Source of the DNA: a virus
Taxonomy: Duplodnaviria > Heunggongvirae > Uroviricota > Caudoviricetes
Length of the DNA: 14,391 bases
Strand: one strand, 5' to 3'
Virus record (IMG/VR): IMGVR_UViG_3300028985_000084
Location: 1-14,391 of that record
This document shows positions 1,762 through 14,391 of this stretch, one piece after another (the first letter of the stretch is position 1; each line of letters starts with the position of its first letter). A model generated the notes under the pieces. The model made no database searches. It saw only the letters and a list, made by a program, of their open reading frames with translations, and was not told the DNA's origin. Both the position numbers and the translations under genes were made by a program.

Positions 1762-1764
1762 TCT

Positions 1765-2007
1765 TTACTTCCTTTTCATGGCCCGTAATTTTTTCAGATG
1801 AGCTTCCTGCTCTGTTTCTGCCAGAATTTTGCGGTACTCCTGGTGGTCAATATGTTCGAACAGGCAGTTTAACTCACCAATGCGTACCCGCCCGGATCGT
1901 CCGTCCATCCGTCGAAAGAACACTGAGTGCTCAGTGATGCGAGTAATCACCACGGGGTATCCGGCTCTGTCCGTGTATATCTGACTGCGTTGAATCAAAG
2001 CGAACAT
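1765..2007 (-). CDS. Hypothetical phage protein (80 aa from ATG; ORF track extends to a TTG at 2043)
   Basis: ORF track 1765..2043 begins with TTG and has no SD. The internal ATG (MFALIQRSQ...) at ~2007 has GGGGA 7 nt upstream. Stop lies 3 nt before the next downstream start. Confidence 0.5.
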   Translation of the reverse strand: MFALIQRSQIYTDRAGYPVVITRITEHSVFFRRMDGRSGRVRIGELNCLFEHIDHQEYRKILAETEQEAHLKKLRAMKRK

Positions 2008-2091
2008 GTGGTTATCCCCATCGACAAATCGAGAACACAACAAACGCTGCTGCGAATACCACCCCCAGAGTTACGATTGCATCACGCCAGC

Positions 2092-2925
2092 TCATTGATT
2101 CACCTCCTGCGGCGGTTCTGGCAGCGGCATCCAGTGGGTTACCTCCTTGAGATACAGGTCTTCGCCACCACCGTCATCCCAAGTGGGCTTGCCATCATTA
2201 AACCAGTCGCCATATACGCCGACCTGAGTGTTGGGGATGCTTGGTGGGTAGTTGTTTTTAAAGTCAGCAGCTAACACATAGCATTGTCGCTCTCCCATTT
2301 CTGGCATTCGCTCACTACAGCTTATCCAACTATCCGGAGTTACCGGAAGCGAGAACGGCAGCACATCTCTGTGAACAAGTTTTTGCTGTGACAGGTTATC
2401 CAGAACTTTCTGTACTGCTGCATCACCGAATACACCAAGCGCATCTGCCATAACTCCTACAACCTGATAAGCCTCAGCGCATACCGTGGATAAACCATCC
2501 GGAATTACCGGAGAGTTGCCGGGTTCTTTAATGTGCAAGCGAGGCTCACCATCTTTTGGCTCAGGCCACTGGCGCTCCATGTTGATCTTCAATTTATCTT
2601 CCATAGCAACGTTAATTTCAGCATCGCTGATGCCAGCACGGCGTTGTGCATCCCACAACAGAAACTGCATATCAGCCCACTCGCTAAGATCGTCTGGTTC
2701 GGCTGCGGCTTCCAGTGCCTCTTTTGAGAGGTGTTTCAGTGGACCAATGGGGCCAACGCAGCCAAATGTGGAGTCAGACCATTTGGCATGCTCGTGGCGA
2801 ATCTGTTCGCGTTCCAGTGATGCCAGTGCAATTCGTGCCAGTTCCATTTGTTCGCCACGGGTAAGCCCGTTTTCAAGCGGGTATTTAATGAACAATTCGA
2901 TACGTTCTTTAGTGATAGTGCTCAT
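2092..2925 (-). CDS. Two-domain phage protein: N-terminal MazG-like dATP/dGTP pyrophosphohydrolase-type domain (DUF550-like) fused to C-terminal DUF551-like domain
   Basis: 277-aa ORF; ATG at 2925 with AAGGAG 6 nt upstream. C-terminus (…WISCSERMPE…THWMPLPEPP) matches my recollection of DUF551 proteins; the N-terminal half resembles the prophage DUF550 family. Domain calls are from memory, not a search. Confidence 0.7.
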   Translation of the reverse strand: MSTITKERIELFIKYPLENGLTRGEQMELARIALASLEREQIRHEHAKWSDSTFGCVGPIGPLKHLSKEALEAAAEPDDLSEWADMQFLLWDAQRRAGISDAEINVAMEDKLKINMERQWPEPKDGEPRLHIKEPGNSPVIPDGLSTVCAEAYQVVGVMADALGVFGDAAVQKVLDNLSQQKLVHRDVLPFSLPVTPDSWISCSERMPEMGERQCYVLAADFKNNYPPSIPNTQVGVYGDWFNDGKPTWDDGGGEDLYLKEVTHWMPLPEPPQEVNQ

Positions 2926-2926
2926 A

Positions 2927-3676
2927 TCACTCTCCTTTGATGCGAATGTTTACAACCTGGCAGGCCTCTTTTAGCATCCAGTAAATAGCGTCTTTCCATG
3001 CTCCGGTTTCGGCTGGCGGATTCTCACGTTTTACCTGCTCATAGAAGCGCACAGCTTTAACCAGTCCTTCCGGCACTACTGGCGATGGCTGTTTAGCTTC
3101 TAAATCAGCAATTCTGTCAACCACGGCATCGACAGCATCTGAAAAGCCGAACCAGTTGCTCCACTCCGGCCTGTTACCGGTTGCTGCAAAGTACATATCA
3201 GCTAAAGCAGACTCAGCATGGTCACGCTCGTTAATGAGTTGCTCTTCGCTTTTCTCCAGTTCAGCAATACGCTTACTTCCATCCGAGATAACGCCCTCGT
3301 AATACTCACGCTGCTCGTTGAGTTGTGATTTTGTCTCCTCAAGTTCAGCAACCAGTTTTCGAAGCCCTTCAATCTCACCATTGCGAGCAATGAGGTCGCG
3401 GCACATGCTTTCGTTCTCATCCAGCAGTGCCAGCACGGTAGCCGGGTTAGCCTCTGCTATGAATTCAGCGTTTGCATAAGCCTGAGCATCTGTTTCAATC
3501 AGGCAGTTAACATGACATTCTGCAATCACGCCACCGGGTTCTCCTTTCCATTTTTGGCAAACAAAAACTCCTGTTAAATTGCCGTGCTGGTTAACAGATG
3601 TATGCCCTACGATGTAGCTTCCTTTAGTTGCTTTCTCTGCCGCCTCACGCAGTACCTGATAGTCAATCTTGCTCAC
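2927..3676 (-). CDS. Ead/Ea22-like prophage protein (coiled-coil rich)
   Basis: ORF track 2927..3709. Likely start is the GTG at ~3676 (VSKIDYQVL…), preceded by AAGGAGG and overlapping the upstream stop in a GTGA coupling arrangement. Central region (ANPATVLALLDENES…, heptad-like E/L/K) is typical of Ead/Ea22-like proteins. Confidence 0.7.
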   Translation of the reverse strand: MSKIDYQVLREAAEKATKGSYIVGHTSVNQHGNLTGVFVCQKWKGEPGGVIAECHVNCLIETDAQAYANAEFIAEANPATVLALLDENESMCRDLIARNGEIEGLRKLVAELEETKSQLNEQREYYEGVISDGSKRIAELEKSEEQLINERDHAESALADMYFAATGNRPEWSNWFGFSDAVDAVVDRIADLEAKQPSPVVPEGLVKAVRFYEQVKRENPPAETGAWKDAIYWMLKEACQVVNIRIKGE

Positions 3677-4023
3677 TGGTTGCCTCCTTTGCGAATCTGT
3701 TCCGCCCATTCTTCTAGGGATTTCTCCGCATATTCACCGGACAGGCCATCAATCGGGTGTGGTTCATTAGCCAACTCTTCTTTCGCTGACAGAATCATGC
3801 GTGTAACGTCGAAAACTTCACGTAAAGACTTATTGATAAATCCGTGATTGAAAGCCGCAGCAAGACGGCTTGCGGTATAGTTAATACCCTCGTTGCGAGC
3901 CTCAGCACGTACTTCATCGAATTTACGCACCAGATACTCAGCATTTGTTTCATTCACTTTCAGATCTCGTGGTACACATTTCCCGCGAAGAAACCCTTCC
4001 ATTTCGAAAACATTCATGCGCAT
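3673..4023 (-). CDS. Hypothetical early-left-operon protein (YfdS-like by position and size)
   Basis: 116-aa ORF; ATG at 4023 with GGAG 8 nt upstream; a second ATG at 4017 overlaps the upstream stop (ATGA). Confidence 0.6.
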   Translation of the reverse strand: MRMNVFEMEGFLRGKCVPRDLKVNETNAEYLVRKFDEVRAEARNEGINYTASRLAAAFNHGFINKSLREVFDVTRMILSAKEELANEPHPIDGLSGEYAEKSLEEWAEQIRKGGNQ

Positions 4024-4550
4024 TTGCGTAACTCCGATAACTCGTTAAAACGTTCCATAAACATCCCGTAGGCATGGCCTGGCGACAGTGGAATCACTTT
4101 GAACATCTCTGTTGCCGGGATACCTTCCAGTACAGGCCAGAAAGAGCTATCATCAAGCCCGAGATCGCGGCGTTCGGTTGCCAGCATGATGAGATCGGCA
4201 TATTTCACGGGCGTGCTCATAACCGGGGGTAACCCGTATTTCTCACGGATTACGGCGTCTATTTTTTCTTCCATCCGTTTATAGTCAGGAAGAAGGCGTT
4301 TCAGTGGAGCGGGAATATCCTGGCAATACGCTTCTGTTGCATCATGCATTAACGCTTCAAAAGCAAATTCCTGCGGCACCAGCTGGCTGCAAAGCACCGC
4401 ATGTTGGGCGACACTGTAGAAGTGAGAAAGATGACCGGCAAAGCGGCAGATATTTGAAAGGGAAACCGCGATATCGTTAATCACGATGTCGTCTTTATTT
4501 ATCCTGTCATAATAAAAATGCTTCCCGGAAAAAGTTTTAATAAATGACAT
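4014..4550 (-). CDS. yfdR: HD-domain phosphohydrolase, 5'-deoxynucleotidase YfdR-like
   Basis: ORF track 4014..4577. Preferred start is the ATG at 4550 (MSFIKTFSGKHFYY…) with GGAG 7 nt upstream, giving 178 aa. HD signature H…HD…D present (…HAVLCSQLV…EALMHDATEAY…). Follows a 274-aa yfdQ-like gene as in CPS-53. Confidence 0.8.
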   Translation of the reverse strand: MSFIKTFSGKHFYYDRINKDDIVINDIAVSLSNICRFAGHLSHFYSVAQHAVLCSQLVPQEFAFEALMHDATEAYCQDIPAPLKRLLPDYKRMEEKIDAVIREKYGLPPVMSTPVKYADLIMLATERRDLGLDDSSFWPVLEGIPATEMFKVIPLSPGHAYGMFMERFNELSELRKCA

Positions 4551-4643
4551 TTTGTTCTCCACGTATATGCGCTGCACCGCGCTGAGTTTGGGTAAAAGGA
4601 AGCCCTCACCATCCGGTGATTATTGAGTTAATTACGTTTCCAT

Positions 4644-4665
4644 AAATGCCCCCGCAGGGGCATTT
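4644..4665 (-). terminator. Intergenic GC hairpin (AAATGCCCC-loop-GGGGCATTT) between yfdQ-like and yfdR-like genes; possible attenuator or processing site
   Basis: Near-perfect 9-bp inverted repeat with 4-nt loop read from the sequence; only a weak U-tract follows on the minus strand. Confidence 0.3.
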
Positions 4666-4677
4666 GCAGTAATGAAA

Positions 4678-5502
4678 TCAGGCGGTGAAAGTACCAATAA
4701 AGGTTTCTACTTTGCTGTCTTTGAATTTCTCAACAAGCAGATCACGAAATTCGTTAGCCATATCTTCCTGCACCGCTTCCAGCTGAATAATGCGCATAAC
4801 CAGTACAGGACGATCGCCAGTGATAATGCTGAGGCGTAATTTAAACGGACGTTCTTTCAGACCTTCAAACGGAACGCATTTAAATTCAAATGTCACTGGC
4901 ATAATGTCTTTGGTCTTCGCTTCGACAGATTCCATCAGGGAGCGTTTGCCGCTGAAGTCATTGTCTTCAAAATCAGCGGTCTGGTTCGCTTCAATTGTGA
5001 TTTTACGGATCGCCGCAACCGCTTTGGTTGCCTGAATGGCGTCACCATTAGCATCAAAGCCCACAAGGTAGTCGGCCCAGTCTTCAATCCATTCTGCCAG
5101 TGACTTTTGGGAGTTACGCTCGCCATTAACAGACAACAGAGCAGAGAACGGTGCTGTCTTTTTCAGTTTGAGAGTGGCGGTGTTATCTGCGTGACCTGGT
5201 TCATCAATAGTACCCAGGTTAAGCACACTGACGGCACGCATATTATCGGCATCGATAAAGCAGCGGGTGCCTTCATCTGCAAGATCTTTAGAATAACGGG
5301 TAAAGTCATCGATGCTGGCAGTGGAAAGCGCACCACGGAAACGGAAGCGATTTAAATTAAATTTTTCCAGATCATGAATGCGGAAATTCTCAGGCAATGC
5401 CACAGCATCGGCACCAATCTTACTAATAATTTCATTAACACCCTGAGCAGAAATAAGGGCATGGATTTGATTAATTGCGGTTGCGTCTAAGTTCTGAGAC
5501 AT
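4678..5502 (-). CDS. yfdQ: YfdQ-like protein (DUF2303 family), function unknown
   Basis: 274-aa ORF; ATG at 5502 with GAGGA 6 nt upstream. Size and position between 120-aa and 178-aa HD genes match the CPS-53 yfdP-yfdQ-yfdR order. Confidence 0.75.
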
Positions 5503-5567
5503 AATAAGTCCTCACTATATAAAGATATTCAGTGATGAGATAAATAATCGGTTAATTAAGAACGATA

Positions 5568-5930
5568 TTAATGACCTGCTGCGCGGAGTTTTCCGTCAGG
5601 TTCACCGGCAAGAGTCAGTAATTGTCCCTGGTCTTCCTGCAGAATAGTCAGGCGACCACCTCGATTGACATACATCGGCGTTTCGGTGGTGTCTTCTTCG
5701 GAGATTTTCCCGCGGTTAGTCGGGCGAACATATGAGAGTTTGTGTTTGATTTTCACACGGTTCTCATCAAACGGTTCGATGTCCAGATTGACCGAGACTT
5801 TACCTTTGTTTTTCGTGTTCATCACACCGGAAGCGACTTCACTGAGAACTGCGCCGAGTTTGGTTTCAAATACGCCGCCGTCCAGTTCTACGATAAATAC
5901 CTGCACATCAGTACTGCGTACGCTAGCCAT
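5568..5930 (-). CDS. yfdP: YfdP-like small protein (120 aa), first gene of the leftward early cluster
   Basis: ORF track gives a 182-aa frame (5568..6116). The internal ATG at ~5930 (MASVRSTDVQ…) has GAGGAG 8 nt upstream and yields 120 aa; the 62-codon upstream extension has no SD. Confidence 0.6.
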   Translation of the reverse strand: MASVRSTDVQVFIVELDGGVFETKLGAVLSEVASGVMNTKNKGKVSVNLDIEPFDENRVKIKHKLSYVRPTNRGKISEEDTTETPMYVNRGGRLTILQEDQGQLLTLAGEPDGKLRAAGH

Positions 5931-5978
5931 TTTGCTGCTCCTCATCATACCGACCCTGCAAGGTCGGTTGGTTTCTCC

Positions 5979-6067
5979 ACAAAACAGAGAAGAACACCTG
6001 CGGTGACAGCCGCCCGGATGGATTGGGTTATGAGCCCGTCGTCCGGTGATGCTCTTCTCTGTTTTGT
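5979..6067. repeat. Perfect 15-bp inverted repeat (ACAAAACAGAGAAGA … TCTTCTCTGTTTTGT) separated by ~59 bp, in the leader upstream of the leftward cluster
   Basis: Read directly from the sequence; arms are exact reverse complements. A 15-bp perfect IR is very unlikely by chance in 14 kb. Confidence 0.8.
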
Positions 6068-6335
6068 AAAAAGAGCGGTACCAGCCGGAAGCAAGTGTAC
6101 AAACTGGTACCGCCAAAGCAGTGGCTGTTGTGGTGACCGGTGCTGATCTCCGGCTTGCGGTTATTTCAGACTCTCACGGGCGTTTAATTGCCCCGCCGAA
6201 CAGCTCTTTTCCGCAATAGCTGCAATGTCTTTCGCGCATCAGCCTGCGCATTCACCACAACGCTAAGGATTCTCTCTGGTTGAAAATACTTAGCTGTTAT
6301 GTGCCTGCTTTTAGCCACATCAGGCGAGGTGGACC

Positions 6336-6399
6336 TGGTTATTCCCCAACAACAAGGATTTGGTTATTATGTAACCCTCCCCAACAACGATAAGGATTT
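6336..6399 (+). repeat. Tandemly duplicated module TGGTTATT … CCCCAACAAC … AAGGATTT (two copies, second with short insertions)
   Basis: Direct repeat read from the sequence. Each copy ends in AAGGA followed by an ATG: copy 1 gives ATG-TAA (start-stop), copy 2 gives the ATG of mini-ORF P1. Confidence 0.7.
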
Positions 6400-6401
6400 A
6401 T

Positions 6402-6491
6402 ATGGATCTATGTGTAGATAAGTATGAGGAGAGGCATGTGCCGTTAAGACAAAAGCCTCCAGTTCCTCCAAAACCACCCAAGGAAAACTGA
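6402..6491 (+). CDS. Proline-rich mini-ORF P1 (29 aa, MDLCVDKYEERHVPLRQKPPVPPKPPKEN); possible leader peptide/uORF
   Basis: ATG with AAGGA 5 nt upstream; TGA stop 7 nt before the ATG of the downstream membrane-protein gene; paralogous to two further mini-ORFs downstream. Confidence 0.35.
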   Translation: MDLCVDKYEERHVPLRQKPPVPPKPPKEN

Positions 6492-6498
6492 GACTAAT

Positions 6499-6993
6499 AT
6501 GACCAGAGACGATTATAAATTTTATGTTCACTACTCTTATGTATTGGAGAAGATGAATTACACGTTGTTAACTCGCATTGATAAATTAATAACGTTGATG
6601 TTAATCGTTCTCGGTTTTTCAGTTTTCGCCCCGTACAGTAATTTATTTATTTTCGGTTTGTTTGTTGCCGTACTTTCGGTTCTTCAGTTGGTCTATCAGT
6701 TTGGCCAAGAGGCTGGAATGTCTAAAGAGCAAGCGAGGCATTACAAAAGACTGCTGATTGAGTCTGATACCCTTCCTGAAGATCAGTTGCAAGCTAGGTA
6801 TTTAAAAATCCAAGATACTGATAGTAATCCATGGAAATCACTTGAACGAGCGGCTTTCATTCGGGCCTGTATTTTTGCTGGTGTTCCAACTAAGTACGAT
6901 TTAACAACCAAAGAAAAATTTATAGCTTGGTGTGCGGGAGATCTACCTCTAGAGAATGAACTAACGGATATTAATGATGACCAACAAGCATAA
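6499..6993 (+). CDS. Small inner-membrane protein with two N-terminal TM helices and a ~95-aa soluble C-terminal domain; candidate superinfection-exclusion (SieB-like) or abortive-infection protein
   Basis: 164-aa ORF in an AT-rich segment. Hydrophobic stretches LITLMLIVLGFSVFAPY and LFIFGLFVAVLSVLQLVYQF. On the opposite strand to the early-left genes and convergent with the repressor, the position SieB-type genes occupy in lambdoid prophages. Functional call is positional inference only. Confidence 0.65.
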   Translation: MTRDDYKFYVHYSYVLEKMNYTLLTRIDKLITLMLIVLGFSVFAPYSNLFIFGLFVAVLSVLQLVYQFGQEAGMSKEQARHYKRLLIESDTLPEDQLQARYLKIQDTDSNPWKSLERAAFIRACIFAGVPTKYDLTTKEKFIAWCAGDLPLENELTDINDDQQA

Positions 6994-7048
6994 TCCAGTT
7001 CACGGACATGTACCTCCGAAGCCGAAACCACCGAAACCGAAGAAATGA
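6974..7048 (+). CDS. Proline-rich mini-ORF P3 (24 aa, MMTNKHNPVHGHVPPKPKPPKPKK), overlapping the 3' end of the membrane-protein gene
   Basis: Open frame from ATG ATG to TGA; no clear SD. Peptide shares the H-V-P-P-K-P-K-P-P motif with P1 and P2. Confidence 0.25.
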   Translation: MMTNKHNPVHGHVPPKPKPPKPKK

Positions 7049-7067
7049 GACATAATAGGATTGGATA

Positions 7068-7136
7068 ATGAGTCGACCAATAGAGCCTTTTCATATTCCA
7101 CCTCGTCCCAGGCCACCAGATCCAGGCCCAAAGTGA
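7068..7136 (+). CDS. Proline-rich mini-ORF P2 (22 aa, MSRPIEPFHIPPRPRPPDPGPK)
   Basis: ATG with AGGA ~7 nt upstream; followed ~25 nt later by an intrinsic terminator; paralogous to P1 and P3. Confidence 0.35.
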   Translation: MSRPIEPFHIPPRPRPPDPGPK

Positions 7137-7159
7137 GGGTTACTGATTTTTAAAGAGCG

Positions 7160-7184
7160 AAGCGTCCGGTAGGGCGCTTTTTTG
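7160..7184 (+). terminator. Rho-independent terminator closing the plus-strand insert operon
   Basis: 8-bp stem AAGCGTCC / GGGCGCTT (one G-U pair) with GGTA loop, followed by a 6-7 nt T-tract. Confidence 0.65.
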
Positions 7185-7298
7185 GTACTAACGAATCATC
7201 CTGGACTTCATATGCCCCAGGCGGCTACTTCGTGGGCGTCCTGCCTGTTCGTTATCTTTGATATAAAATCTAACTTAACTTAGTTTTAATGGCAAGAG

Positions 7299-7330
7299 AA
7301 AACACCAAACTTTTCTTAGTTCGGTGTTTT
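7299..7330 (-). terminator. Hairpin downstream of the repressor gene, candidate (bidirectional) terminator
   Basis: Inverted repeat AAAACACCAAAC … GTTCGGTGTTTT with 8-nt loop; on the minus strand the stem is followed by UUUUCUCUU; lies ~20-50 nt past the cI-type stop. Confidence 0.4.
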
Positions 7331-7349
7331 GGTTAGAGAAAAGGGGGGG

Positions 7350-7976
7350 CTAGAGTTCGTATTGAACTCCTTTGACTACACCAATGATGAGGCAATTACC
7401 ATTGATCGGGATGTTGGGGTACCGGGGATTTAATGGCACTAAAAACTTTTGAGGGCCATCGATAACTAATTTTTTTACTGTGGCTTCGTTTGTTCCATCA
7501 AGTCTAGCGATGACTATTTTTCCATGCCGGGGTTCTGCATCAGGATCTACAATCACTGTTGCGCCTTCTGGTATTGTTGGGAGGCCGTTAGGGTTAGTCA
7601 TGGAGTCGCCTTTAACCTCCAATGCAAATGAGTTATCACCAATCTTTAATGATGTATCTACCCACTTGTCTACTTCACTAAACACTTCTGCTGTCCTGCA
7701 CTCAGTAAACTGCCCAGCCTGAACCCACGAGATTACAGGAACTCTGCGCATGTTTGTGACGAGTTTGCCTTCAAACTCCGCACCATAAAGAATGTAATCT
7801 ATTGACGTATTGAAGAACTTCGCTAATTTTGAAAGTGCTTCCCCACCAGGGACATTGATGTCTTTCTCCCAGTACCCCACAGCAACGTCACTTACTCCAC
7901 AAAATTTACCCAATTCTTTCTGGGACGTTCTGGTAACTCTTCTCAGAGCTTTTATACGCTGACCAACCGTTTCCAT
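7350..7976 (-). CDS. cI: CI-type prophage repressor (N-terminal HTH, C-terminal S24 LexA-like autopeptidase domain)
   Basis: 208-aa ORF. N-terminal HTH (QKELGKFCGVSDVAVGYWE). C-terminal S24 signature including GDSM (catalytic Ser) and a downstream Lys. Divergent from a cro-like gene. Confidence 0.9.
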   Translation of the reverse strand: METVGQRIKALRRVTRTSQKELGKFCGVSDVAVGYWEKDINVPGGEALSKLAKFFNTSIDYILYGAEFEGKLVTNMRRVPVISWVQAGQFTECRTAEVFSEVDKWVDTSLKIGDNSFALEVKGDSMTNPNGLPTIPEGATVIVDPDAEPRHGKIVIARLDGTNEATVKKLVIDGPQKFLVPLNPRYPNIPINGNCLIIGVVKGVQYEL

Positions 7977-8073
7977 AGGAGCACCATTTCTTTAATTACT
8001 AAGTAATCTTAGTTTTTATTGACCTAAGATAGATTGATAATTAACATCTAATAAAACTTAGTTTGGAGGGCAT
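7977..8073. promoter_or_regulatory. Divergent immunity-region promoter/operator segment between cI-type repressor and cro (pRM/pR-like)
   Basis: AT-rich 97-bp spacer between divergent genes. Candidate rightward promoter TTGACC-17 nt-TAACAT ending ~20 nt before the cro ATG (SD GGAGG). Four CTAAG/CTTAG half-site-like motifs, including the palindromic ACTAAGTAATCTTAGT. Confidence 0.6.
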
Positions 8074-8274
8074 ATGACGACTGACGATATCGAAAGCTAC
8101 TTCGGCAGCATTGAGAAAGTTGCTGCTTTTTTCGGCATAACAACTGAAGCCGTTTATCAGTGGCGAAACCGTCCTGGCCAGTTAATTCCAAAAGGACGTG
8201 CAGCAGAGGCTGCATATAGAACTTGCGGACGGTTGCCATTTAAACCTGAGCTTTATGAAAAATCTAATGGATAA
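8074..8274 (+). CDS. cro: Cro-like HTH DNA-binding regulator
   Basis: 66-aa ORF; ATG at 8074 with GGAGG upstream; HTH segment IEKVAAFFGITTEAVYQW; divergent from the repressor. Confidence 0.8.
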   Translation: MTTDDIESYFGSIEKVAAFFGITTEAVYQWRNRPGQLIPKGRAAEAAYRTCGRLPFKPELYEKSNG

Positions 8275-8896
8275 ATCGATTTACAGAAACCACAGATATG
8301 AGGGCTTAAACGTGGGTAAAGAACCTGAATGGAAAGTTGATAAGCAACCAGCATGGCTGGTGGCAGCAATACGAAGAACGATTGCTGATTTACCTCATGG
8401 CTATGAGGAAGCAGCAGAAATTCTTGGTTTGTATAAATCTGATGATATCACCCCAGCAAAAGATCAATTGCATAACAGACTGCGTAGCGGTGGGGATCAA
8501 ATTTTTCCACTTGAGTGGGCCATGGTTTTACAGGATGCCAGTGGTACCAGGCATGTAACGGATGCAATAGCCCGTCGTAGTAATGGGGTGTTTGTGCCGC
8601 TGGTGGTCATTGATGACATTGACAATGGTGACATTAATCAGCGGCTGATGGAGTCAATAGAATGGATTGGCAAGCATTCCCAGTACTTACGCAAGGCAAC
8701 TGCTGATGGAGTTATTGACCAGGCTGAGCGTGAGCAAATCGAAGAGAACAGCTACCAAGTAATGGCGAAGTGGCAGGAGCATTTAACACTGTTATTTCGT
8801 GTTTTTTGTGCGCCGGAAAAGAGTAACGCCCGCGAGTGTGCAGCTCCGGGCGTCGTGGCGTCGATTGCTTCTGGTTGTGGAGAAACTAACGCATGA
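8255..8896 (+). CDS. YdaT/CII-like early regulatory protein (start uncertain)
   Basis: ORF track frame opens at a GTG (8198) inside cro. More likely starts are the ATGs at ~8255 or ~8267 (MKNLMDKS…). Immediately follows cro as ydaT/cII-type genes do; no strong SD, so the start is uncertain. Confidence 0.55.
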
Positions 8897-9231
8897 ACAG
8901 TTTAACAACACACTACCGTCGCTCGCAACTGATTGCGCTTCCTGTACCGGGTGGAAAAGCGAAGGTGGAGTATTGCTATGCAGTGAATGTACCAGGTGAC
9001 AGGGAAATTGTAACCCACAGCTTTGCAGAGTGGGCTGTGGGTGATTTCAACCGGCAGAAGGAGACAGTCCTTTGCGACAAGTTAACCGCTGGTTCAAAGA
9101 TCACCACGGAGTGCCCGTCAGAGTCATTCGTTGGGAGCCGGAAACACAACGGGTTATCTACCTCCGTGAAGGCTATGAACATGAATGCTTCAGCCCACTT
9201 GAGCATTTCAGGCAAAAGTTCAGGGAGATAA
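8893..9231 (+). CDS. Hypothetical protein, frame A (N-terminal ~55 aa protein-like, remainder low quality); possibly frameshifted or truncated
   Basis: ATG overlaps the upstream stop (ATGA) with GGAG ~10 nt upstream, but the C-terminal two-thirds overlap a better-looking gene in another frame. Confidence 0.3.
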
Positions 9232-9263
9232 GGGACGATCATGAGCAAACCAGTAATGATTGA
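9072..9263 (+). CDS. Hypothetical small phage protein (63 aa, DUF4222-like by recollection), TTG start
   Basis: TTG at 9072 preceded by AAGGAG with 9-nt spacer. Product (…[39 protein letters not shown]…) looks like a genuine globular small protein. Confidence 0.45.
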
Positions 9264-10095
9264 TTCTGCCATTCCGGGACGTTACACTGTTCAGGCACCT
9301 TATAAAGCGGGTGCCGGGATTGGCGTCCTGAAATTGTCAACGGCGATGTATGACGCGCCAGCGTCTTTTTTATCGTCCGCATTTGCTCACATCCAGATTA
9401 TGGTGGGCTGGGCGGGGGCACCGAAAGGTGCGCCGGTCTCCGTTGACGCCGGTTACGCCAACCCCGTCCAGTTCACCACCAGTGAAATTGGCGTTTCCGG
9501 TGGTGGAAGTTTTTCACTGTCAACGGAGGCTGCCATCATGGCTACGATCCCAGCCCTCACTCAACCTGAAATCACCATTGACAACGGCCAGGCCGTTACC
9601 ACTTCTTTGGCTGTTGCCAACTTCTTCTCCAAGCGTCACGACGATGTGCTGAAAAAGATCCGCACTCTGGATTGTTCCCCTGAGTTTTGTGCCCGCAATT
9701 TTGCGGAGACATCGATTTCGGTAAATCAACCGAACGGTGGTACACGCAAGCTCCTTTGCTATCAAATCACACGAGACGGTTTTGCGTTTCTTGCTATGGG
9801 TTTCACGGGTAAACGTGCTGCCCGGTTCAAAGAGGCATACATCAATGCCTTTAACCAGATGGAACAGGCGCTGATCGGAAAGGTTGATACTTCATGTGTC
9901 GCGCACAATGCCCACGTTGTTTACCTCTACATGGCTGAAATTCACCGCGTTTGGTTAGAACAACTTTATCCGATGCTGGTTTCAGTTCAGTCTCCGCTGG
10001 CTTCATCGCTCTACGACTACATCAACGATGGTGTATTCGTTGCCGGGCTGGTGGACTCGGAACTGAACGAAAAGCATAAGGAGGTGCGTAAGTGA
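9241..10095 (+). CDS. Rha-family phage regulatory protein with an unusual ~100-aa N-terminal extension
   Basis: 284-aa ORF. Residues ~105-200 (ITIDNGQAVTTSLAVANFFSKRHDDVLKKIRTL…) fit the Rha N-terminal domain. ATG at 9241 has AAGGGA upstream; an internal ATG at ~9538 has a strong GGAGG 8 nt upstream and would give a canonical ~186-aa Rha protein. Confidence 0.75.
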   Translation: MSKPVMIDSAIPGRYTVQAPYKAGAGIGVLKLSTAMYDAPASFLSSAFAHIQIMVGWAGAPKGAPVSVDAGYANPVQFTTSEIGVSGGGSFSLSTEAAIMATIPALTQPEITIDNGQAVTTSLAVANFFSKRHDDVLKKIRTLDCSPEFCARNFAETSISVNQPNGGTRKLLCYQITRDGFAFLAMGFTGKRAARFKEAYINAFNQMEQALIGKVDTSCVAHNAHVVYLYMAEIHRVWLEQLYPMLVSVQSPLASSLYDYINDGVFVAGLVDSELNEKHKEVRK

Positions 10096-11033
10096 GCACC
10101 AAATTAACCGGCTATGTATGGGATGGTTGCGCAGCGTCAGGCATGAAATTATCCAGTGTGGCAATTATGGCCCGTCTGGCTGATTTCAGTAATGACGAGG
10201 GTGTGTGCTGGCCATCAATTGAAACCATTGCCCGCCAGATTGGCGCGGGGATGAGTACCGTCAGAACGGCTATCGCACGGCTGGAAGCAGAAGGCTGGTT
10301 AACGCGTAAGGCGCGTCGCCAGGGTAACCGCAATGCGTCGAATGTTTATCAGCTTAACGTTGCGAAGCTTCAGGCTGCGGCATTTTCTCAACTGTCAGAT
10401 TCTGACCCGTCAAAATCTGACGCATCAAAATCTGACCCGTCAAAATTTGATGCGTCGAAATCTGGCAAAAAAGCGTGTTTTCACCCGTCAGAATCTGGCG
10501 GGGATCCGTCAGTAAAATCAAAACATGATCCGTCAGATAAAAAACCTTCTCGTCCGGACGCTTTGCAACCGGACACGCAGACGGCTGAACAGGATTTTTT
10601 AACTCGCCATCCTGATGCGGTTGTATTCAGCCCTAAAAAGCGCCAGTGGGGAACGCAGGATGATTTGACCTGCGCACAGTGGCTCTGGAAAAAAATCATC
10701 GCCCTGTACGAGCAGGCCGCCGAATGTGACGGCGAGGTGGTTCGTCCCAAAGAACCGAACTGGACAGCATGGGCAAACGAAATTCGCCTGATGTGTGTGC
10801 AGGATGGTCGTACTCACAAACAAATCTGCGAGATGTACAGCCGCGTCAGCCGTGATCCGTTCTGGTGCCGTAACGTGCTCAGCCCGTCGAAGTTGCGGGA
10901 AAAATGGGATGAGCTTTCCCTGCGCTTATCGCCGTCCGTCAGCACGCACACAGAAAAACGTGAAGACCCGTACTTCAAAGCCAGTTACGACAACGTGGAC
11001 TACAGCCAGATCCCGGCAGGATTCAGGGGGTGA
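10092..11033 (+). CDS. Replication initiator / replisome organiser (lambda O-like; N-terminal HTH, origin iterons inside the gene)
   Basis: 313-aa ORF; GTG start overlapping the upstream stop (GTGA) with AAGGAGG 8 nt upstream. N-terminal HTH (…CWPSIETIARQIGAGMSTVRTAIARLEAEGWL…). Internal 15-bp tandem repeats encode SKSDx pentapeptide repeats. Confidence 0.8.
   Translation: MSTKLTGYVWDGCAASGMKLSSVAIMARLADFSNDEGVCWPSIETIARQIGAGMSTVRTAIARLEAEGWLTRKARRQGNRNASNVYQLNVAKLQAAAFSQLSDSDPSKSDASKSDPSKFDASKSGKKACFHPSESGGDPSVKSKHDPSDKKPSRPDALQPDTQTAEQDFLTRHPDAVVFSPKKRQWGTQDDLTCAQWLWKKIIALYEQAAECDGEVVRPKEPNWTAWANEIRLMCVQDGRTHKQICEMYSRVSRDPFWCRNVLSPSKLREKWDELSLRLSPSVSTHTEKREDPYFKASYDNVDYSQIPAGFRG
10395..10510 (+). 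repeat. Origin-like iteron array: five contiguous 15-bp direct repeats (consensus TCAAAATCTGACNCR, ~10395-10469) plus two degenerate copies and an A-rich tract
   Basis: Read directly: TCAGATTCTGACCCG / TCAAAATCTGACGCA / TCAAAATCTGACCCG / TCAAAATTTGATGCG / TCGAAATCTGGCAAA. In-frame within the initiator gene, as lambda ori lies inside gene O. Confidence 0.7.
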
Positions 11034-11035
11034 TC

Positions 11036-11128
11036 ATGAGTCTGTTAAATGACGTTCAGAAATTCATTGAAGCCCATCCGGGCTGTACTTCCGGAGACAT
11101 TGCGGATGCTTTTTACGTGGGGGCTTAA
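11036..11128 (+). CDS. Hypothetical small protein (30 aa, MSLLNDVQKFIEAHPGCTSGDIADAFYVGA)
   Basis: Below ORF-track cut-off. ATG 2 nt after the initiator stop with AGGGGG 5 nt upstream; its TAA overlaps the next gene's ATG (TAATG). Confidence 0.35.
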   Translation: MSLLNDVQKFIEAHPGCTSGDIADAFYVGA

Positions 11129-11781
11129 TGAGTAATAAATATTGCCAGGCGCTGGTAGAACTGCGGAACAAACCAGCCCATGAACTGAAGGAAGTGGGCG
11201 ATCAGTGGCGCACGCCGGACAACATTTTCTGGGGAATTAACACCTTGTTTGGTCCGTTTGTTCTGGATCTGTTCACTGACGGTGATAACGCCAAATGTGC
11301 CGCGTATTACACGGCGGAAGACAACGCGCTGGCGCATGACTGGTCAGAACGTCTTGCGGAGCTTAAAGGTGCTGCCTTTGGTAATCCCCCATACAGCCGC
11401 GCCAGTCAGCATGAGGGGCAATACATCACCGGCATGCGTTACATCATGAAACATGCCAGTGCCATGCGTGATAAGGGCGGGCGCTATGTTTTCCTGATCA
11501 AAGCTGCCACCAGCGAAGTGTGGTGGCCGGAAGATGCGGACCATATTGCTTTTATTCGCGGGCGTATTGGTTTTGAACTGCCTGCCTGGTTTATACCGAA
11601 GGACGAGAAGCAGGTGCCGACAGGCGCTTTCTTCGCTGGTGCTATTGCTGTTTTCGACAAGACCTGGAAGGGACCGGCAATCAGCTACATCGGGCGCGAT
11701 GAACTTGAGGCATGTGGTGAGGCATTTCTGGCGCAGGTTCGCCAGCAGGCGGAAAAACTGGTCAGGGAGATGGTGGCATGA
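11128..11781 (+). CDS. Phage DNA N6-adenine methyltransferase (Dam-like)
   Basis: 217-aa ORF with the (D/N)PPY catalytic motif (GNPPYS) and an N-terminal W-R-T-P-type motif typical of phage Dam proteins. Confidence 0.85.
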   Translation: MSNKYCQALVELRNKPAHELKEVGDQWRTPDNIFWGINTLFGPFVLDLFTDGDNAKCAAYYTAEDNALAHDWSERLAELKGAAFGNPPYSRASQHEGQYITGMRYIMKHASAMRDKGGRYVFLIKAATSEVWWPEDADHIAFIRGRIGFELPAWFIPKDEKQVPTGAFFAGAIAVFDKTWKGPAISYIGRDELEACGEAFLAQVRQQAEKLVREMVA

Positions 11782-12167
11782 AGCTAATACTGCCTTTTCC
11801 GCCCAGCGTGAACACGTACTGGCGACACCCCAACAAAGGGGCATTTGCTGGTAAGAGCCTGATAAGCGAGGCGGGGCGAAAATTTCAGAGCGCGGCGTGT
11901 GCCGCCATCATTGAGCAGTTACGTCGTCTGCCGAAACCAACGTCGGCACCTGCTTCAGTGGAGATCGTGTTGTTTCCTCCGGATAACCGGATCCGCGATC
12001 TGGACAACTATAACAAGGCGCTGTTTGATGCCCTGACCCACGCGGGTGTGTGGGAAGACGACAGACAGGTGAAAAGAATGCTGGTGGAGTGGGGACCGGT
12101 TATCCCGAAAGGGAAGGTCGAGATCACTATCAGTAAGTATGAGAAACCGGCGGGTGCAGCCGCCTGA
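11778..12167 (+). CDS. rusA: RusA-family Holliday-junction resolvase
   Basis: 129-aa ORF; ATG overlaps the upstream stop (ATGA). Conserved RusA pattern (…LPFPPSVNTYW… DLDNYNKALFDALTHAGVWEDD…), comparable to E. coli RusA DLDN…FDALT as I recall it. Confidence 0.85.
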   Translation: MKLILPFPPSVNTYWRHPNKGAFAGKSLISEAGRKFQSAACAAIIEQLRRLPKPTSAPASVEIVLFPPDNRIRDLDNYNKALFDALTHAGVWEDDRQVKRMLVEWGPVIPKGKVEITISKYEKPAGAAA

Positions 12168-12186
12168 TTAAGAGGAGAAACGAAGT

Positions 12187-12996
12187 ATGAATAATCTGAT
12201 GGTCATTGATGGTATTGAAGTTCGTCGTGATGCTTATGGGCGTTACAGCCTGAACGATCTGCACAGGGCAGCCGGGGGAGAACAAAAAAACCGCCCGAAA
12301 TACTGGCTCTCCAATAAGCAAACCTGTGAATTGATTGAACAACTTTTCACCGAGGGGGGAATTCCGCCTCTGGAAAAGAATCAACCAGTTAGCGTTATCA
12401 ATGGCGGAAATAACCAGGGGACGTATGTCTGCAAAGAACTGGTGTATGCCTATGCAATGTGGATCAGTCCGTCATTCCATCTGAAGGTGATCCGTACTTT
12501 CGATACGGTAACCAGCGCACCGGAAAAATTATCCGGGCAGGCTGCTGACAAGATGCAGGCTGGTGTGATTCTGCTGGACTTTATGCGTCGGGAGTTAAAC
12601 CTGTCTAACTCATCTGTGCTTGGTGCCTGTCAGAAACTCCAGGAGGCTGTTGGCTTACCGAATCTGGCACCGCGCTATGCCATTGATGCTCCTGCCGATG
12701 CACCCGATGGCTCAAGTCGCCCCACGCTGTCGCTAAGTGCACTGCTGAAACAGTATGGTATCCGCCTGACGGCTAATCAGGCATATCACCAGATGGTGAA
12801 GCTGGGGATCGTCGAGCAGCGCGAACGATACAGCCGTACCGCGATTAACAACATCAAAAAATTCTGGTCGCTGACGGCGAAAGGCTGCATGTTCGGCAAG
12901 AACATCACCAGTCCTGCAAATCCGCGCGAGACGCAGCCGCACTTCTTCGAATCCCGATTCCCTGAGCTGTTAAAGCTGCTCGATACCGTTCATTGA
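12187..12996 (+). CDS. KilA-N domain protein (antirepressor-like, nin-region)
   Basis: 269-aa ORF; AGAGGAG 9 nt upstream of the ATG. N-terminal ~100 aa (…DGIEVRRDAYGRYSLNDLHRAAGG…YWLSNKQT…GTYVCKELVYAYAMWISPSFHLKVIRTF) fits the KilA-N fold pattern. Confidence 0.75.
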   Translation: MNNLMVIDGIEVRRDAYGRYSLNDLHRAAGGEQKNRPKYWLSNKQTCELIEQLFTEGGIPPLEKNQPVSVINGGNNQGTYVCKELVYAYAMWISPSFHLKVIRTFDTVTSAPEKLSGQAADKMQAGVILLDFMRRELNLSNSSVLGACQKLQEAVGLPNLAPRYAIDAPADAPDGSSRPTLSLSALLKQYGIRLTANQAYHQMVKLGIVEQRERYSRTAINNIKKFWSLTAKGCMFGKNITSPANPRETQPHFFESRFPELLKLLDTVH

Positions 12997-12997
12997 G

Positions 12998-13993
12998 GTG
13001 ACCGTGAGAGCACTACTGACCCCTGAAATTGCCCCGCGTATGGGGATCGTATTGTTCAGACCAGGTTCAGAGCTGATGCCCCTGTTTATGCAGGGGCGTG
13101 TCCTGCTGGAGCCTGAGCCGGAACGTTATTCATCTTTCGCCAGTGGTGCCGTTCCGGCGGCATCACAACCGCTGGCGGATGATCCTGCCGTTCGGGCCGT
13201 GTTCCGCAATGAGGCAGTGATCCGTCGTGCTGGTGGCGTGGAATGTCTTGAAAGCTGGTTACTTCGTGAAAAAGGCTGCCAGTGGGCTCATTCCGACTGG
13301 CACAGCGAGAACATGACCACAATGCGGCACGCTCCGGGCGCAATCCGTCTGTGCTGGCACTGCGATAACCAGCTGCGCGATCAGTTCACGGAACGGCTGG
13401 AATCAATGGCAACGGATAACTGTGCCCGCTGGGTGTTATCTGTTGTGCGCCGTGATCTCGGTTTTGATGACAGTCACGTTGTGACAATGCCGGAACTGTG
13501 CTGGTGGCTGGTTCGTAATGACCTGGCGGATGCCTTACCGGAAAGTGCAGCCCGTAAGGCACTGAGATTACCGAAGCCTGTTGTGCCGTCTGTCACCCGG
13601 GAGAGTGACCTTGTTCCTTCGGTTCCTGCCACCAGCATTATCCAGGATAAAGCGAAAAAGGTGCTGGCGCTGAAAGTGGATCCGGAGTCGCCGGAGTCTT
13701 TTATGTTACGCCCAAAACGTCGCCGCTGGGTTAATGAAAAGTACACGCGCTGGGTTAAGACACAGCCGTGTGCATGTTGTGGAAAGCCAGCTGATGATCC
13801 CCACCACCTGATAGGCCACGGTCAGGGGGGAATGGGTACAAAAGCGCATGACCTCTTTGTGTTGCCTTTGTGCAGAAAGCATCACGACGAGCTGCATGCG
13901 GATACCGTGGCATTTGAAGAGAAGTATGGCTCCCAGCTGGAGCTGATATTTCGTTTTATCGATCGTGCGCTGGCAATTGGCGTGCTGGCCTGA
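12998..13993 (+). CDS. DUF968-like protein with C-terminal HNH/His-Me-finger-like Cys/His cluster (NinG-like position); start uncertain
   Basis: 331-aa ORF from a GTG directly after the upstream stop. C-terminal motif QPCACCGKPADDPHHLIGHG…CRKHHDELH resembles HNH-type metal-binding nucleases; a second Cys/His cluster in the N-terminal half (CQWAHSDWH…CWHCDNQ). Lies just before Q. Confidence 0.7.
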   Translation: MTVRALLTPEIAPRMGIVLFRPGSELMPLFMQGRVLLEPEPERYSSFASGAVPAASQPLADDPAVRAVFRNEAVIRRAGGVECLESWLLREKGCQWAHSDWHSENMTTMRHAPGAIRLCWHCDNQLRDQFTERLESMATDNCARWVLSVVRRDLGFDDSHVVTMPELCWWLVRNDLADALPESAARKALRLPKPVVPSVTRESDLVPSVPATSIIQDKAKKVLALKVDPESPESFMLRPKRRRWVNEKYTRWVKTQPCACCGKPADDPHHLIGHGQGGMGTKAHDLFVLPLCRKHHDELHADTVAFEEKYGSQLELIFRFIDRALAIGVLA

Positions 13994-14010
13994 TTTTGTG
14001 GAGAAAGTTG

Positions 14011-14391
14011 ATGCGTGATATTCAGATGGTTCTTGAACGCTGGGGGGCATGGGCTGCAAGTGGTAACACCGGGGTGGACTATTCTCCGATCGCTGCCGGA
14101 TTCAAAGGACTTTTACCATCTGCCACTAAACCACGTCCGGCCTGCTGCGATGATGACGGACTTATCATTGAAAACTGTCTTGCTCGTCTGAAGCAGAAAA
14201 AACCTGAGGAGTATTCGCTTCTCATTGCTCATTATTTGTTGCGAATATCAAAAAGACAGATAGCCAGGACGAGAAAGAAAAGCGAAAAAGCAATACGAAT
14301 TGAGATGCAGATAGCCGAAGGGTTTATTGACGGATGTTTGTCTGTGCTGGGGGTAAGACTGGAGATGGACGACTGGCTGCTAAAAAAGTAA
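14011..14391 (+). CDS. Q: Late-gene antitermination protein Q (QuuD/phage-82-type Q family)
   Basis: ORF track frame opens at a TTG (13996); the ATG at ~14011 has GGAG 7 nt upstream and gives 126 aa starting MRDIQMVLERWGAWAA…, which closely matches my recollection of E. coli QuuD-type Q. TAA stop is the last three bases of the window. Confidence 0.85.
   Translation: MRDIQMVLERWGAWAASGNTGVDYSPIAAGFKGLLPSATKPRPACCDDDGLIIENCLARLKQKKPEEYSLLIAHYLLRISKRQIARTRKKSEKAIRIEMQIAEGFIDGCLSVLGVRLEMDDWLLKK

What the first reader, a model, noticed from the sequence alone, without database searches (positions are those of the whole stretch)
10395..10510. Replication origin iterons embedded in the initiator gene and translated as SKSDx pentapeptide repeats
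Five contiguous 15-bp direct repeats (TCAAAATCTGACNCR) plus degenerate copies and an A-rich tract lie inside the 313-aa HTH initiator ORF, in frame, producing …SDSDPSKSDASKSDPSKFDASKSG… in the linker between the N-terminal HTH and the C-terminal domain. This matches the lambda arrangement of ori inside gene O but with a different iteron sequence and period, so it probably defines this prophage's replicon specificity. The A-rich tract following the array is the likely unwinding element.
Basis: partly seen in the sequence, partly recalled or inferred. Interest (0 to 1): 0.45.

Follow-up and report, generated by a model that had tools for sequence, protein, structure and literature searches.

The report
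Prophage replication origin inside initiator gene
A run of short DNA repeats inside a prophage's replication-initiator gene is very probably that phage's replication origin, built like phage lambda's but with its own repeat sequence; the arrangement is expected for this kind of phage, but this version is very common in E. coli and has not been annotated.

Summary
Five contiguous 15-bp repeats (10394-10466) and a sixth 33 bp further on (10487-10499) lie in frame inside the 313-aa initiator gene (10092-11033). Their core is a dyad, TCA-N5-TGA. The lambda-like origin reading is well supported by computation. (1) Relatives with the same N-terminal HTH_36 domain keep the same array even when the C-domain is swapped (phiNP). 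Relatives with the same C-domain but another N-domain carry a different array at the same place (mEp460). More distant HTH_36 initiators each have their own array. (2) Synonymous divergence falls from 53-66% in the DNA-binding-domain codons to 7-19% across ~10375-10590, although amino-acid identity is no higher there, so selection acts on the DNA. (3) The lowest-GC 40-mer of the gene (10509-10548) lies just right of the array, as in lambda. This is a new member of a known kind, present in about 29% of complete E. coli genomes. Side lead: no helicase loader is encoded between int and Q, and the initiator ends in IPAGFRG, the invariant C-terminal motif of host DnaT.

The parts
10092..11033 (+). 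Initiator gene (313 aa, GTG start overlapping the stop of the upstream Rha/Ash ORF), 98% identical to the 'replication/O/primosomal protein' of Shigella phages SfIV and SfII
10158..10301 (+). Codons 23-70: Pfam HTH_36 winged-helix match, the core of the N-terminal DNA-binding domain (about aa 1-95, 10092-10376)
   Evidence: E 4.3e-11; alignment of relatives
10394..10406 (.). Iteron 1, GTCAGATTCTGAC (perfect 6+1+6 palindrome)
10409..10421 (.). Iteron 2, GTCAAAATCTGAC
10424..10436 (.). Iteron 3, ATCAAAATCTGAC
10439..10451 (.). Iteron 4, GTCAAAATTTGAT
10454..10466 (.). Iteron 5, GTCGAAATCTGGC
10467..10483 (.). A6...T4 spacer (AAAAAAGCGTGTTTTCA). The 33-bp offset it creates to iteron 6 is conserved in SfIV, phiNP, Eeyore and YeP2
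10487..10499 (.). Iteron 6, GTCAGAATCTGGC; together with the next element it forms the most invariant block among relatives
10503..10517 (.). GATC element 1, GATCCGTCAGTAAAA (contains a Dam site); the same GAT-CCG-TCA codons are used in all relatives
   Evidence: (D3)
10518..10528 (.). Degenerate iteron-like unit, TCAAAACATGA
10527..10541 (.). GATC element 2, GATCCGTCAGATAAA (contains a Dam site)
   Evidence: (D3)
10509..10548 (.). AT-rich stretch, the lowest-GC 40-mer of the gene (30% GC); candidate DNA-unwinding element
10549..10590 (.). GC-rich segment still inside the synonymous-constraint trough; contains the palindrome CGTCCGGACG (read directly from the sequence); relatives have GGTTGCG/CGCAACC here; the mosaic junctions lie here or just upstream
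10644..10922 (+). Codons about 185-277: domain homologous to the C-terminal domain of lambda O
   Evidence: 36% identity, E 3e-25
10958..11033 (+). C-terminal tail module (…REDPYFKASYDNVDYSQIPAGFRG*). It is exchanged as a unit among otherwise unrelated initiators and ends in the DnaT-type motif IPxGFRG (11010-11030)

Best explanation
Window ~10375-10590 is the replication origin of this lambdoid prophage (SfII/SfIV type), embedded in the linker-coding part of its own initiator gene. Inferred mechanism: dimers of the N-terminal HTH_36 winged-helix domain bind the dyad cores (TCA-N5-TGA) of six iterons, five of them packed at 15-bp spacing and a sixth 33 bp further on. The resulting nucleoprotein complex destabilises the adjacent AT-rich stretch (10509-10548), which carries two GATCCGTCAG elements with Dam sites. 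The C-terminal part of the initiator then brings in the host helicase. The iteron sequence matches the N-domain type and so sets replicon specificity. Shown by computation: the repeats, their dyad symmetry, their co-inheritance with the N-domain, selection on the DNA itself, and the lambda-like layout. Inferred: binding, unwinding, and helicase recruitment. No phage loader is encoded, so recruitment is presumably direct, possibly through the DnaT-like IPAGFRG tail.
For: (1) Non-random array: (0 of 200 shuffles). (2) Positive control: the same tool recovers lambda's four annotated iterons, and lambda's lowest-GC 40-mer lies directly right of iteron 4. (3) Co-variation with the N-domain. phiNP shares aa 1-160 (84%) and the same array but has an unrelated C-domain, Phg_2220_C. 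mEp460 shares the C-domain but has another N-domain and a different ~23-bp dyad array at the same position. Relatives with 80-87% N-domain identity (Kp4872-1, Eeyore, YeP2) keep the 15-bp TCARAATYTGA units and the 15x4+33 spacing. At 59% identity (Kp4866-6) the dyad arms change symmetrically to CTCA...TGAG. At 33-45% identity (Min27, LESphi3, ST15-VIM1phi2.1, Ayreon) the arrays are unrelated, with 17-24-bp periods. (4) Selection on the DNA. Codons for identical amino acids differ in 53-66% of cases in the DNA-binding domain but in only 7-19% across aa 98-150 (Fisher p = 1.7e-7, 9e-7, 8e-7 and 5e-4 in four comparisons). Amino-acid identity is not higher there. The trough is bounded at about aa 95-165. 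Codon choice is fixed within the array: Ser 15/15 TCN, Pro 5/5 CCG, Lys 9/9 AAA. (5) The AT-richest 40-mer lies directly right of the array in 9 of the 11 genes examined, including lambda. (6) No other repeat array lies in 7900-14391. (7) Literature: lambda, P22 and phage L initiators each bind their own iterons within their own coding regions (bioRxiv 10.1101/2020.10.05.325894).
Against: There are no experimental data for this phage type, and the SfIV genome paper does not mention an origin. The AT-rich stretch is modest (30% GC against 20% in lambda). The 15-bp centre-to-centre spacing is much tighter than lambda's 20-24 bp, so the geometry of any O-some-like complex is unclear. The register of a binding unit (TCA-N5-TGA within a unit, or TGAC-N2-GTCA across units) cannot be settled from sequence. 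Shared ancestry inflates the apparent independence of the close relatives. The synonymous test was not significant for the most distant 15-bp relative (Kp4866-6, p = 0.17). The single-sequence structure model was unusable.
Confidence: 0.8

Rival explanations
1. The repeats are initiator-binding sites but not the start site of replication. They would serve autoregulation, copy-number control (handcuffing), incompatibility or exclusion, with the true origin elsewhere.
For: Iterons in plasmids also act in control. Sequence analysis shows binding-site-like properties but cannot show initiation. No sigma-70-like promoter was found in 9900-11200, so promoter autoregulation at this spot has no support, but that scan is crude.
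Against: The array is followed by the AT-richest segment of the gene, exactly as in lambda's proven origin. No other array exists between cI and Q. No DnaA box occurs anywhere in the window. The layout matches lambda, P22 and phage L, where the in-gene repeats are taken to be the origin.
Confidence: 0.08
2. The repeats are only a slippage-generated, low-complexity, disordered protein linker (SKSDx) with no function as DNA.
For: The period is a multiple of three. The peptide is S/D/K/P-rich. Copy number varies in whole units (Kp4872-1 has one extra). The poor AF2 model shows no regular structure at about aa 103-161 (low confidence).
Against: Synonymous change is suppressed three- to eight-fold in this region while amino-acid change is not, which is the opposite of what a merely tolerated linker would show. 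The units have dyad symmetry that a peptide has no reason to impose. In sister genes the arrays have periods of 17-24 bp, not multiples of three, so they are not peptide repeats yet occupy the same position.
Confidence: 0.04
3. The DNA-level constraint reflects something else that overlaps the gene: a second reading frame, a structured RNA, or a recombination hotspot that keeps the segment homogenised among phages.
For: ORFs exist in other frames (10333-10515 on the + strand, 10354-10521 on the - strand). Mosaic junctions lie at the right edge of the region (10534 and 10570). Dyad units could form small hairpins.
Against: The alternative frames are not conserved: the +1 frame has early stops in phiNP and YeP2, and the - frame is interrupted in Kp4872-1. 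Rfam finds nothing here. The hairpins would have only 3-4 bp stems. Homogenisation by recent exchange would also raise amino-acid identity, which is not observed.
Confidence: 0.04

Closest known systems
Phage lambda ori within gene O (four ~19-bp dyad iterons, then an AT-rich region; O N-domain binds the iterons, O C-domain binds P)
   Same: The origin is embedded in the initiator gene between the DNA-binding and C-terminal domains. There are multiple dyad-symmetric direct repeats, and the AT-richest segment lies immediately to their right. The C-terminal domain is homologous (36% identity, E 3e-25). The gene lies in the rightward early operon downstream of cro/cII.
   Different: The N-domain is HTH_36, not Phage_rep_O. 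The iteron sequence is unrelated. Five units are packed contiguously at 15 bp (in frame, giving a peptide repeat) instead of 20-24 bp. Conserved GATC-containing elements lie in the AT-rich part. There is no P gene. The protein carries a DnaT-like C-terminal tail that lambda O lacks.
Origins of other lambdoid phages inside their initiator genes (P22 gene 18, phage L gene 18; phi80-type gene 15 as in mEp237 and Pm34)
   Same: Each initiator type has its own iteron set within its own coding sequence (10.1101/2020.10.05.325894). mEp237 and Pm34 show their own 21- to 24-bp arrays at the same relative position.
   Different: Those initiators are paired with a helicase (P22 and L gp12) or a P-type loader; this one is not. 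The iteron sequence and spacing differ.
Other HTH_36-type phage initiators (Stx phage Min27 'O', Klebsiella ST15-VIM1phi2.1, Pseudomonas LESphi3, Escherichia phage Ayreon)
   Same: Same N-domain family and the same layout, with an array directly after the DNA-binding domain inside the gene.
   Different: Unrelated repeat sequences with 17-24-bp periods. Several are followed by a partner replication gene: a lambda-P homologue in ST15-VIM1phi2.1 and a Toprim protein in Min27.
Iteron-type plasmid origins (P1 oriR, F, R6K, pPS10; from established knowledge)
   Same: Arrays of initiator-binding direct repeats lie next to an AT-rich unwinding region, and the initiators are winged-helix proteins. From memory, P1 oriR also has GATC-containing short repeats in its AT-rich part and depends on Dam methylation.
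   Different: Plasmid origins are normally intergenic and include DnaA boxes; none is present in this window. This array is inside the coding sequence.
E. coli DnaT (primosomal protein I)
   Same: The extreme C-terminus SQIPAGFRG matches DnaT's SQIPPGFRG in 8 of 9 residues. IP[P/R]GFRG is invariant in DnaT of about 79 species.
   Different: There is no similarity beyond the tail, and the Pfam DnaT domain is not detected in the window protein. Record annotations such as 'primosomal protein I' therefore overstate the relationship.

Membership tests
Lambda-type phage origin (ori inside the initiator gene) | Several direct repeats with internal dyad symmetry lying within the initiator's coding sequence, between the N- and C-domain codons | tested here: met
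   Six units at 10394-10499 with core TCA-N5-TGA. The HTH_36 match ends at aa 70 and the lambda-O-like C-domain starts at about aa 185.
Lambda-type phage origin (ori inside the initiator gene) | AT-rich region immediately to the right of the iterons | tested here: met
   The lowest-GC 40-mer of the gene is 10509-10548 (30% GC), directly after iteron 6. Lambda, the control, has the same layout. It is weaker than lambda's (20% GC).
Lambda-type phage origin (ori inside the initiator gene) | Iteron sequence specific to the initiator's N-terminal domain (classically shown with hybrid phages) | tested here: met
   Natural mosaics: the array follows the N-domain (phiNP) and not the C-domain (mEp460), and the arrays diverge in step with N-domain divergence. 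This is correlative evidence, not a binding assay.
Lambda-type phage origin (ori inside the initiator gene) | The initiator binds the repeats, and the fragment supports initiator-dependent replication | not testable with these tools
   Needs EMSA or footprinting and a replication assay.
Lambda-type phage origin (ori inside the initiator gene) | Adjacent P-type (or DnaC- or DnaB-type) partner gene that delivers the helicase | tested here: not met
   No helicase, loader or primase Pfam domain occurs in any ORF from int (1-1314) to Q (13996 onward). The genes downstream are a PerC-like remnant, Dam and RusA.
Lambda O protein family (Pfam PF04492 / TIGR01610, N-terminal domain) | N-terminal Phage_rep_O domain | tested here: not met
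   The window protein matches HTH_36 instead. Lambda O, the control, matches PF04492 at 5.7e-36.
Lambda O protein family (C-terminal domain) | Homology to the lambda O C-terminal (P-interacting) domain | tested here: met
   BLASTP: 36% identity over 149 aa, E 3e-25. tblastn links it to O proteins of lambda, Stx and phi80-type phages.
HTH_36 phage/plasmid initiator N-domain (Pfam PF13730) | Match above the Pfam gathering threshold | tested here: met
   42.9 bits against a cut-off of 25, aa 23-70.
Iteron plasmid origin (RepA/pi/TrfA type) | DnaA box(es) next to the iterons | tested here: not met
   No TTWTNCACA on either strand anywhere in the window.
DnaT (primosomal protein I) | DnaT DNA-binding domain (PF17948) or full-length similarity | tested here: not met
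   Only the last 9 residues align with E. coli DnaT, and PF17948 is not hit by the window protein.
DnaT (primosomal protein I) | C-terminal IPxGFRG motif | tested here: met
   IPAGFRG at aa 307-313. The motif is invariant in 79 DnaT orthologues. The function of the motif is unknown.

The most novel reading that the evidence does not exclude
This prophage type is an 'initiator-only' replicon. It encodes no helicase loader. It would recruit the host DnaB-DnaC (or the PriA/PriB restart machinery) to its origin through a short C-terminal motif, IPxGFRG, copied from or convergent with the invariant tail of host DnaT. The tail behaves as an exchangeable module on at least three unrelated initiator C-domains. 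In this small sample it is present when no phage loader gene follows and absent when one does. If true, the phages would point to the still unknown way in which DnaT hands over to DnaB/DnaC.
Probability: 0.3. Interest if true: 0.65.

Novelty: new member of a known kind. Interest (0 to 1): 0.35.

Why it matters
The result assigns a probable origin and a specificity determinant to a replicon found in about 29% of complete E. coli genomes (1576 of 5426), where the gene is currently annotated only as 'helix-turn-helix domain-containing protein'. This helps in typing prophage replicons, predicting replication incompatibility or exclusion between co-resident lambdoid prophages (including Shigella serotype-converting phages and relatives of Stx phages), and designing ori-initiator pairs as orthogonal replication parts. 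The tightly packed 15-bp in-frame iterons are a clear example of one DNA segment serving both as protein-coding sequence and as protein-binding sites. Synonymous-site suppression marks the boundaries of such an origin without any experiment. The DnaT-like tail is a testable lead on helicase recruitment.

Tried and rejected
1. Structure: the single-sequence AlphaFold2 model had mean pLDDT 43.5 and could not be used for a fold search or to show linker disorder.
2. PDB sequence search: only weak MarR-type winged-helix matches (E about 0.008), and no solved relative.
3. NCBIfam: nothing specific for the window protein.
4. DnaA boxes: none in the window. Sigma-70 promoters: none in 9900-11200. Terminator-like sites: at background level.
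5. GATC enrichment over the window: none (57 observed, 56 expected). Only the two conserved sites inside the origin are notable.
6. 30-bp super-repeat (TRF period 30): the CCCG/CGCA alternation is not conserved in relatives, so I treat 15 bp as the unit.
7. Binding register: TCA-N5-TGA within a unit against TGAC-N2-GTCA across units. The conserved bases are the same in both, so this stays unresolved. The within-unit register gives half-sites about 8-9 bp apart, which suits an HTH dimer better (inference).
8. Overlapping ORFs as the cause of the constraint: rejected.
9. Plasmid records carrying the gene: they are chromosome-sized misassignments or phage-sized circles with poor sequence or annotation, so they are not informative about autonomous replication.
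10. Literature: no description found of this iteron set or of an origin in SfII/SfIV, and no paper on the function of DnaT's terminal IPPGFRG.
11. The large protein-database searches (search for homologous proteins, the search of protein representatives) were not used, because the phage and genome collections answered the question.

Full report
**Context.** The window is the complete early region of a lambdoid prophage. It runs from integrase (1-1314, minus strand) to antiterminator Q (13996 onward). In between lie a cI-type repressor (7350-7976, minus), cro (8074-8274), a cII-like gene (8198-8896), a Rha/Ash protein (9241-10095), the gene in question (10092-11033), Dam methylase (11128-11781), RusA, a KilA-N protein and DUF968. 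The gene is 98% identical to the 'replication / O / primosomal protein' of the Shigella serotype-converting phages SfIV and SfII and of several E. coli phages. At least 80% of it is present in 1576 of 5426 complete E. coli genomes, where PGAP names it only 'helix-turn-helix domain-containing protein'.

**Observation.**
- Tandem Repeats Finder reports a period-15 array at 10401-10464.
- The repeat finder places units at 10395, 10410, 10425, 10440 and 10455, with a sixth at 10488.
- The core pattern gives 10 matches in the window. Nine fall on six sites within 10394-10499 and one weak match lies elsewhere. The shuffle mean is 1.36, and none of 200 shuffles reaches 10.
- The units are in frame and read SDSDP-SKSDA-SKSDP-SKFDA-SKSGK...SESGG.

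Over 38 units from six phages the conserved core is T-C-A-R-A-A-T-Y-T-G-A, with C2 and G10 invariant, that is TCA-N5-TGA. The first unit, GTCAGATTCTGAC, is a perfect palindrome.

**What the protein is.** Residues 23-70 match the HTH_36 winged helix (E 4e-11), not the Phage_rep_O domain of lambda O. Residues ~131-277 align with the C-terminal part of lambda O at 36% identity (E 3e-25), with the conserved domain starting at about residue 185. The repeats therefore lie between a DNA-binding domain and a lambda-O-like C-domain, which is the position of lambda's origin in gene O. As a control, the same repeat tool recovered lambda's four annotated iterons.

**Test 1: does the array follow the DNA-binding domain?** Natural mosaics answer this.
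- Citrobacter phage phiNP shares residues 1-160 (84% identity) and the same 15-bp array, but has an unrelated C-domain, Phg_2220_C.
- Phage mEp460 shares the C-domain (about 97%) but has a different N-domain. At the same place in the gene it carries a different array: 4-5 dyad units of about 23 bp, CATCGGGTCAAAGTGACCTGATG.
- A tblastn search with the N-domain found 236 phage records. In a graded sample, every gene had an array directly after the DNA-binding domain.

| N-domain identity to the window | Phages | Array |
|---|---|---|
| 80-87% | Kp4872-1, Eeyore, YeP2 | Same TCARAATYTGA units; the 15,15,15,15,33 spacing is kept in Eeyore and YeP2, and Kp4872-1 has one extra 15-bp unit |
| 59% | Kp4866-6 | 15-bp units with both dyad arms changed (CTCA...TGAG) |
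| 33-45% | Min27, ST15-VIM1phi2.1, LESphi3, Ayreon | Unrelated arrays with 17-24-bp periods |

Phi80-type O genes (mEp237, Pm34) likewise have their own arrays. This is the computational counterpart of the classical hybrid-phage result that the N-terminal half of O sets origin specificity (established knowledge). It also agrees with the published view that lambda, P22 and phage L initiators each bind distinct iterons inside their own genes.

**Test 2: is the constraint on the DNA or on the peptide?** I compared codons that encode identical amino acids.
- In the DNA-binding-domain region (aa 2-95), 53-66% of such codons differ between the window and phiNP, Kp4872-1, Eeyore or YeP2.
- Across aa 98-150 only 7-19% differ (Fisher p = 1.7e-7, 9e-7, 8e-7 and 5e-4).
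- Amino-acid identity is no higher there.

Recent exchange would lower both kinds of change, and a merely tolerated linker would lower neither. The pattern indicates selection on the nucleotide sequence. A sliding profile against the full-length orthologue in Kp4872-1 shows a sharply bounded trough (0.07-0.2) from about residue 95 to 165, which is window ~10375-10590. The values on both sides are 0.4-0.7. Codon choice inside the array is fixed: Ser 15/15 TCN, Pro 5/5 CCG, Lys 9/9 AAA. Overlapping reading frames do not explain this, because they are interrupted in relatives. Rfam finds no RNA family here.

**Test 3: layout.** The lowest-GC 40-mer of the gene is 10509-10548 (30% GC, against 53% for the gene), directly right of iteron 6. 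In lambda the lowest-GC 40-mer lies directly right of iteron 4. The same holds in 9 of the 11 genes examined. Within this stretch are two copies of GATCCGTCAG (10503 and 10527). They are conserved with identical codons in all relatives, and there are three copies in Kp4866-6. The block formed by iteron 6 and the first GATC element is the most invariant part of the alignment. The phage's Dam methylase gene lies about 600 bp downstream, which suggests methylation-sensitive control as at oriC or P1 oriR; this is inference from memory and was not tested. No DnaA box occurs anywhere in the window, and no other repeat array lies between cI and Q.

**Mechanism.** The best-supported reading (confidence about 0.8) is a lambda-type origin spanning ~10375-10590. 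N-domain dimers would bind six dyad iterons, and the complex would open the adjacent AT-rich segment with its GATC elements. The differences from lambda are real:
- a different DNA-binding-domain family;
- five iterons abutting at 15 bp (about 1.4 helical turns), so neighbouring dimers would sit on nearly opposite faces of the helix rather than on one face;
- a period that is a multiple of three, which lets copy number change without breaking the frame (Kp4872-1 has an extra unit);
- no partner gene.

The register of a binding unit cannot be decided from sequence.

**Helicase delivery (side lead).** From int to Q no ORF has a helicase, loader or primase domain. The protein ends in ...DYSQIPAGFRG, and E. 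coli DnaT ends in ...DSQIPPGFRG (8 of 9 residues identical). In DnaT orthologues from about 79 species, IP[P/R]GFRG is invariant while the preceding residues vary. The tail occurs on three unrelated initiator C-domains:
- lambda-O-like: window, SfIV, mEp460, and a variant form in Kp4872-1;
- Phg_2220_C: Eeyore, Kp4866-6, and a variant form in phiNP;
- the Ayreon type.

The tail is also exchanged at the DNA level, with 98.7% identity over the last 76 bp in otherwise different genes. In this small sample, initiators with the tail lack a neighbouring loader gene. Those without the tail have one: lambda, mEp237 and Pm34 have P, ST15-VIM1phi2.1 has a P homologue, and Min27 has a Toprim protein. YeP2 and LESphi3 are unclear. 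Reviews and the 2026 preprimosome structure paper state that how DnaT recruits DnaB/DnaC is unknown, and they do not discuss the tail. I therefore give about 0.3 probability that the tail is a host-replisome recruitment motif.

**Verdict.** As an origin it is a new member of a well-known kind. I found no published description of this iteron set, but the arrangement is what a phage biologist would expect. Interest is moderate to low (0.35). It is raised somewhat by how common the replicon is, by the clean synonymous-constraint signature, and by the initiator-only and DnaT-tail lead.

Noticed in passing
window 11010-11030 (aa 307-313) and the tail module 10958-11033; L005 2479-3018 (E. coli dnaT); L017-L096: The initiator ends in IPAGFRG, the same terminal motif as host DnaT (IPPGFRG, invariant in about 79 species). 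The tail is found on three unrelated initiator C-domains and is exchanged as a DNA module. In this sample it is present when no phage helicase-loader gene follows.
   Followed up: partly
window 1-14391 (int to Q): No helicase, helicase-loader or primase domain is encoded anywhere in the early region, so the replicon appears to be initiator-only even though its C-domain is homologous to the P-binding domain of lambda O.
   Followed up: partly
window 10503-10506 and 10527-10530; Dam gene 11128-11781: Two GATC sites sit inside the conserved GATCCGTCAG elements of the AT-rich part of the origin (three copies in Kp4866-6, L009 1954-1989), and a phage Dam methylase gene lies just downstream. This hints at methylation-dependent control of initiation.
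   Followed up: partly
window 9295-9371 and 9396-9483 (+): Rfam matches above the gathering score to isrK (62 bits) and C4 antisense RNA (81 bits), inside the 5' part of the Ash/Rha ORF 9241-10095. This is a P1/P7-type antisense-controlled antirepressor module directly upstream of the initiator gene.
   Followed up: no
window 11037-11129: The PerC-like gene that follows the initiator in SfIV, mEp460 and Ayreon (about 162 aa) is reduced here to 30 codons by a clean in-frame deletion of about 395 bp relative to mEp460 (window 11113 joins L002 3083 to 3479).
   Followed up: yes
window 7992-8015 and 8041-8064: A pair of 24-bp direct repeats (TTAATTACTAAGTAATCTTAGTTT and TTAACATCTAATAAAACTTAGTTT) lies in the cI-cro intergenic region; they are probably the rightward operators.
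   Followed up: no
window 10534-10570; L001, L002: The mosaic junctions of phiNP (shared up to 10570) and mEp460 (shared from 10534) fall in the same short conserved segment at the right edge of the origin. This suggests a preferred crossover point for swapping the N-domain-plus-origin module against C-domain modules.
   Followed up: partly
L009 1954-1989; L013 1808-1848; L014 2131-2171: Several relatives have a second set of short 12-bp repeats just right of their iterons (GATCCGTCATTA x3 in Kp4866-6; GAACCAGTCACT-like x3 in ST15-VIM1phi2.1 and Ayreon), at the place of the window's GATCCGTCAG pair. This may be a common second origin element.
   Followed up: no
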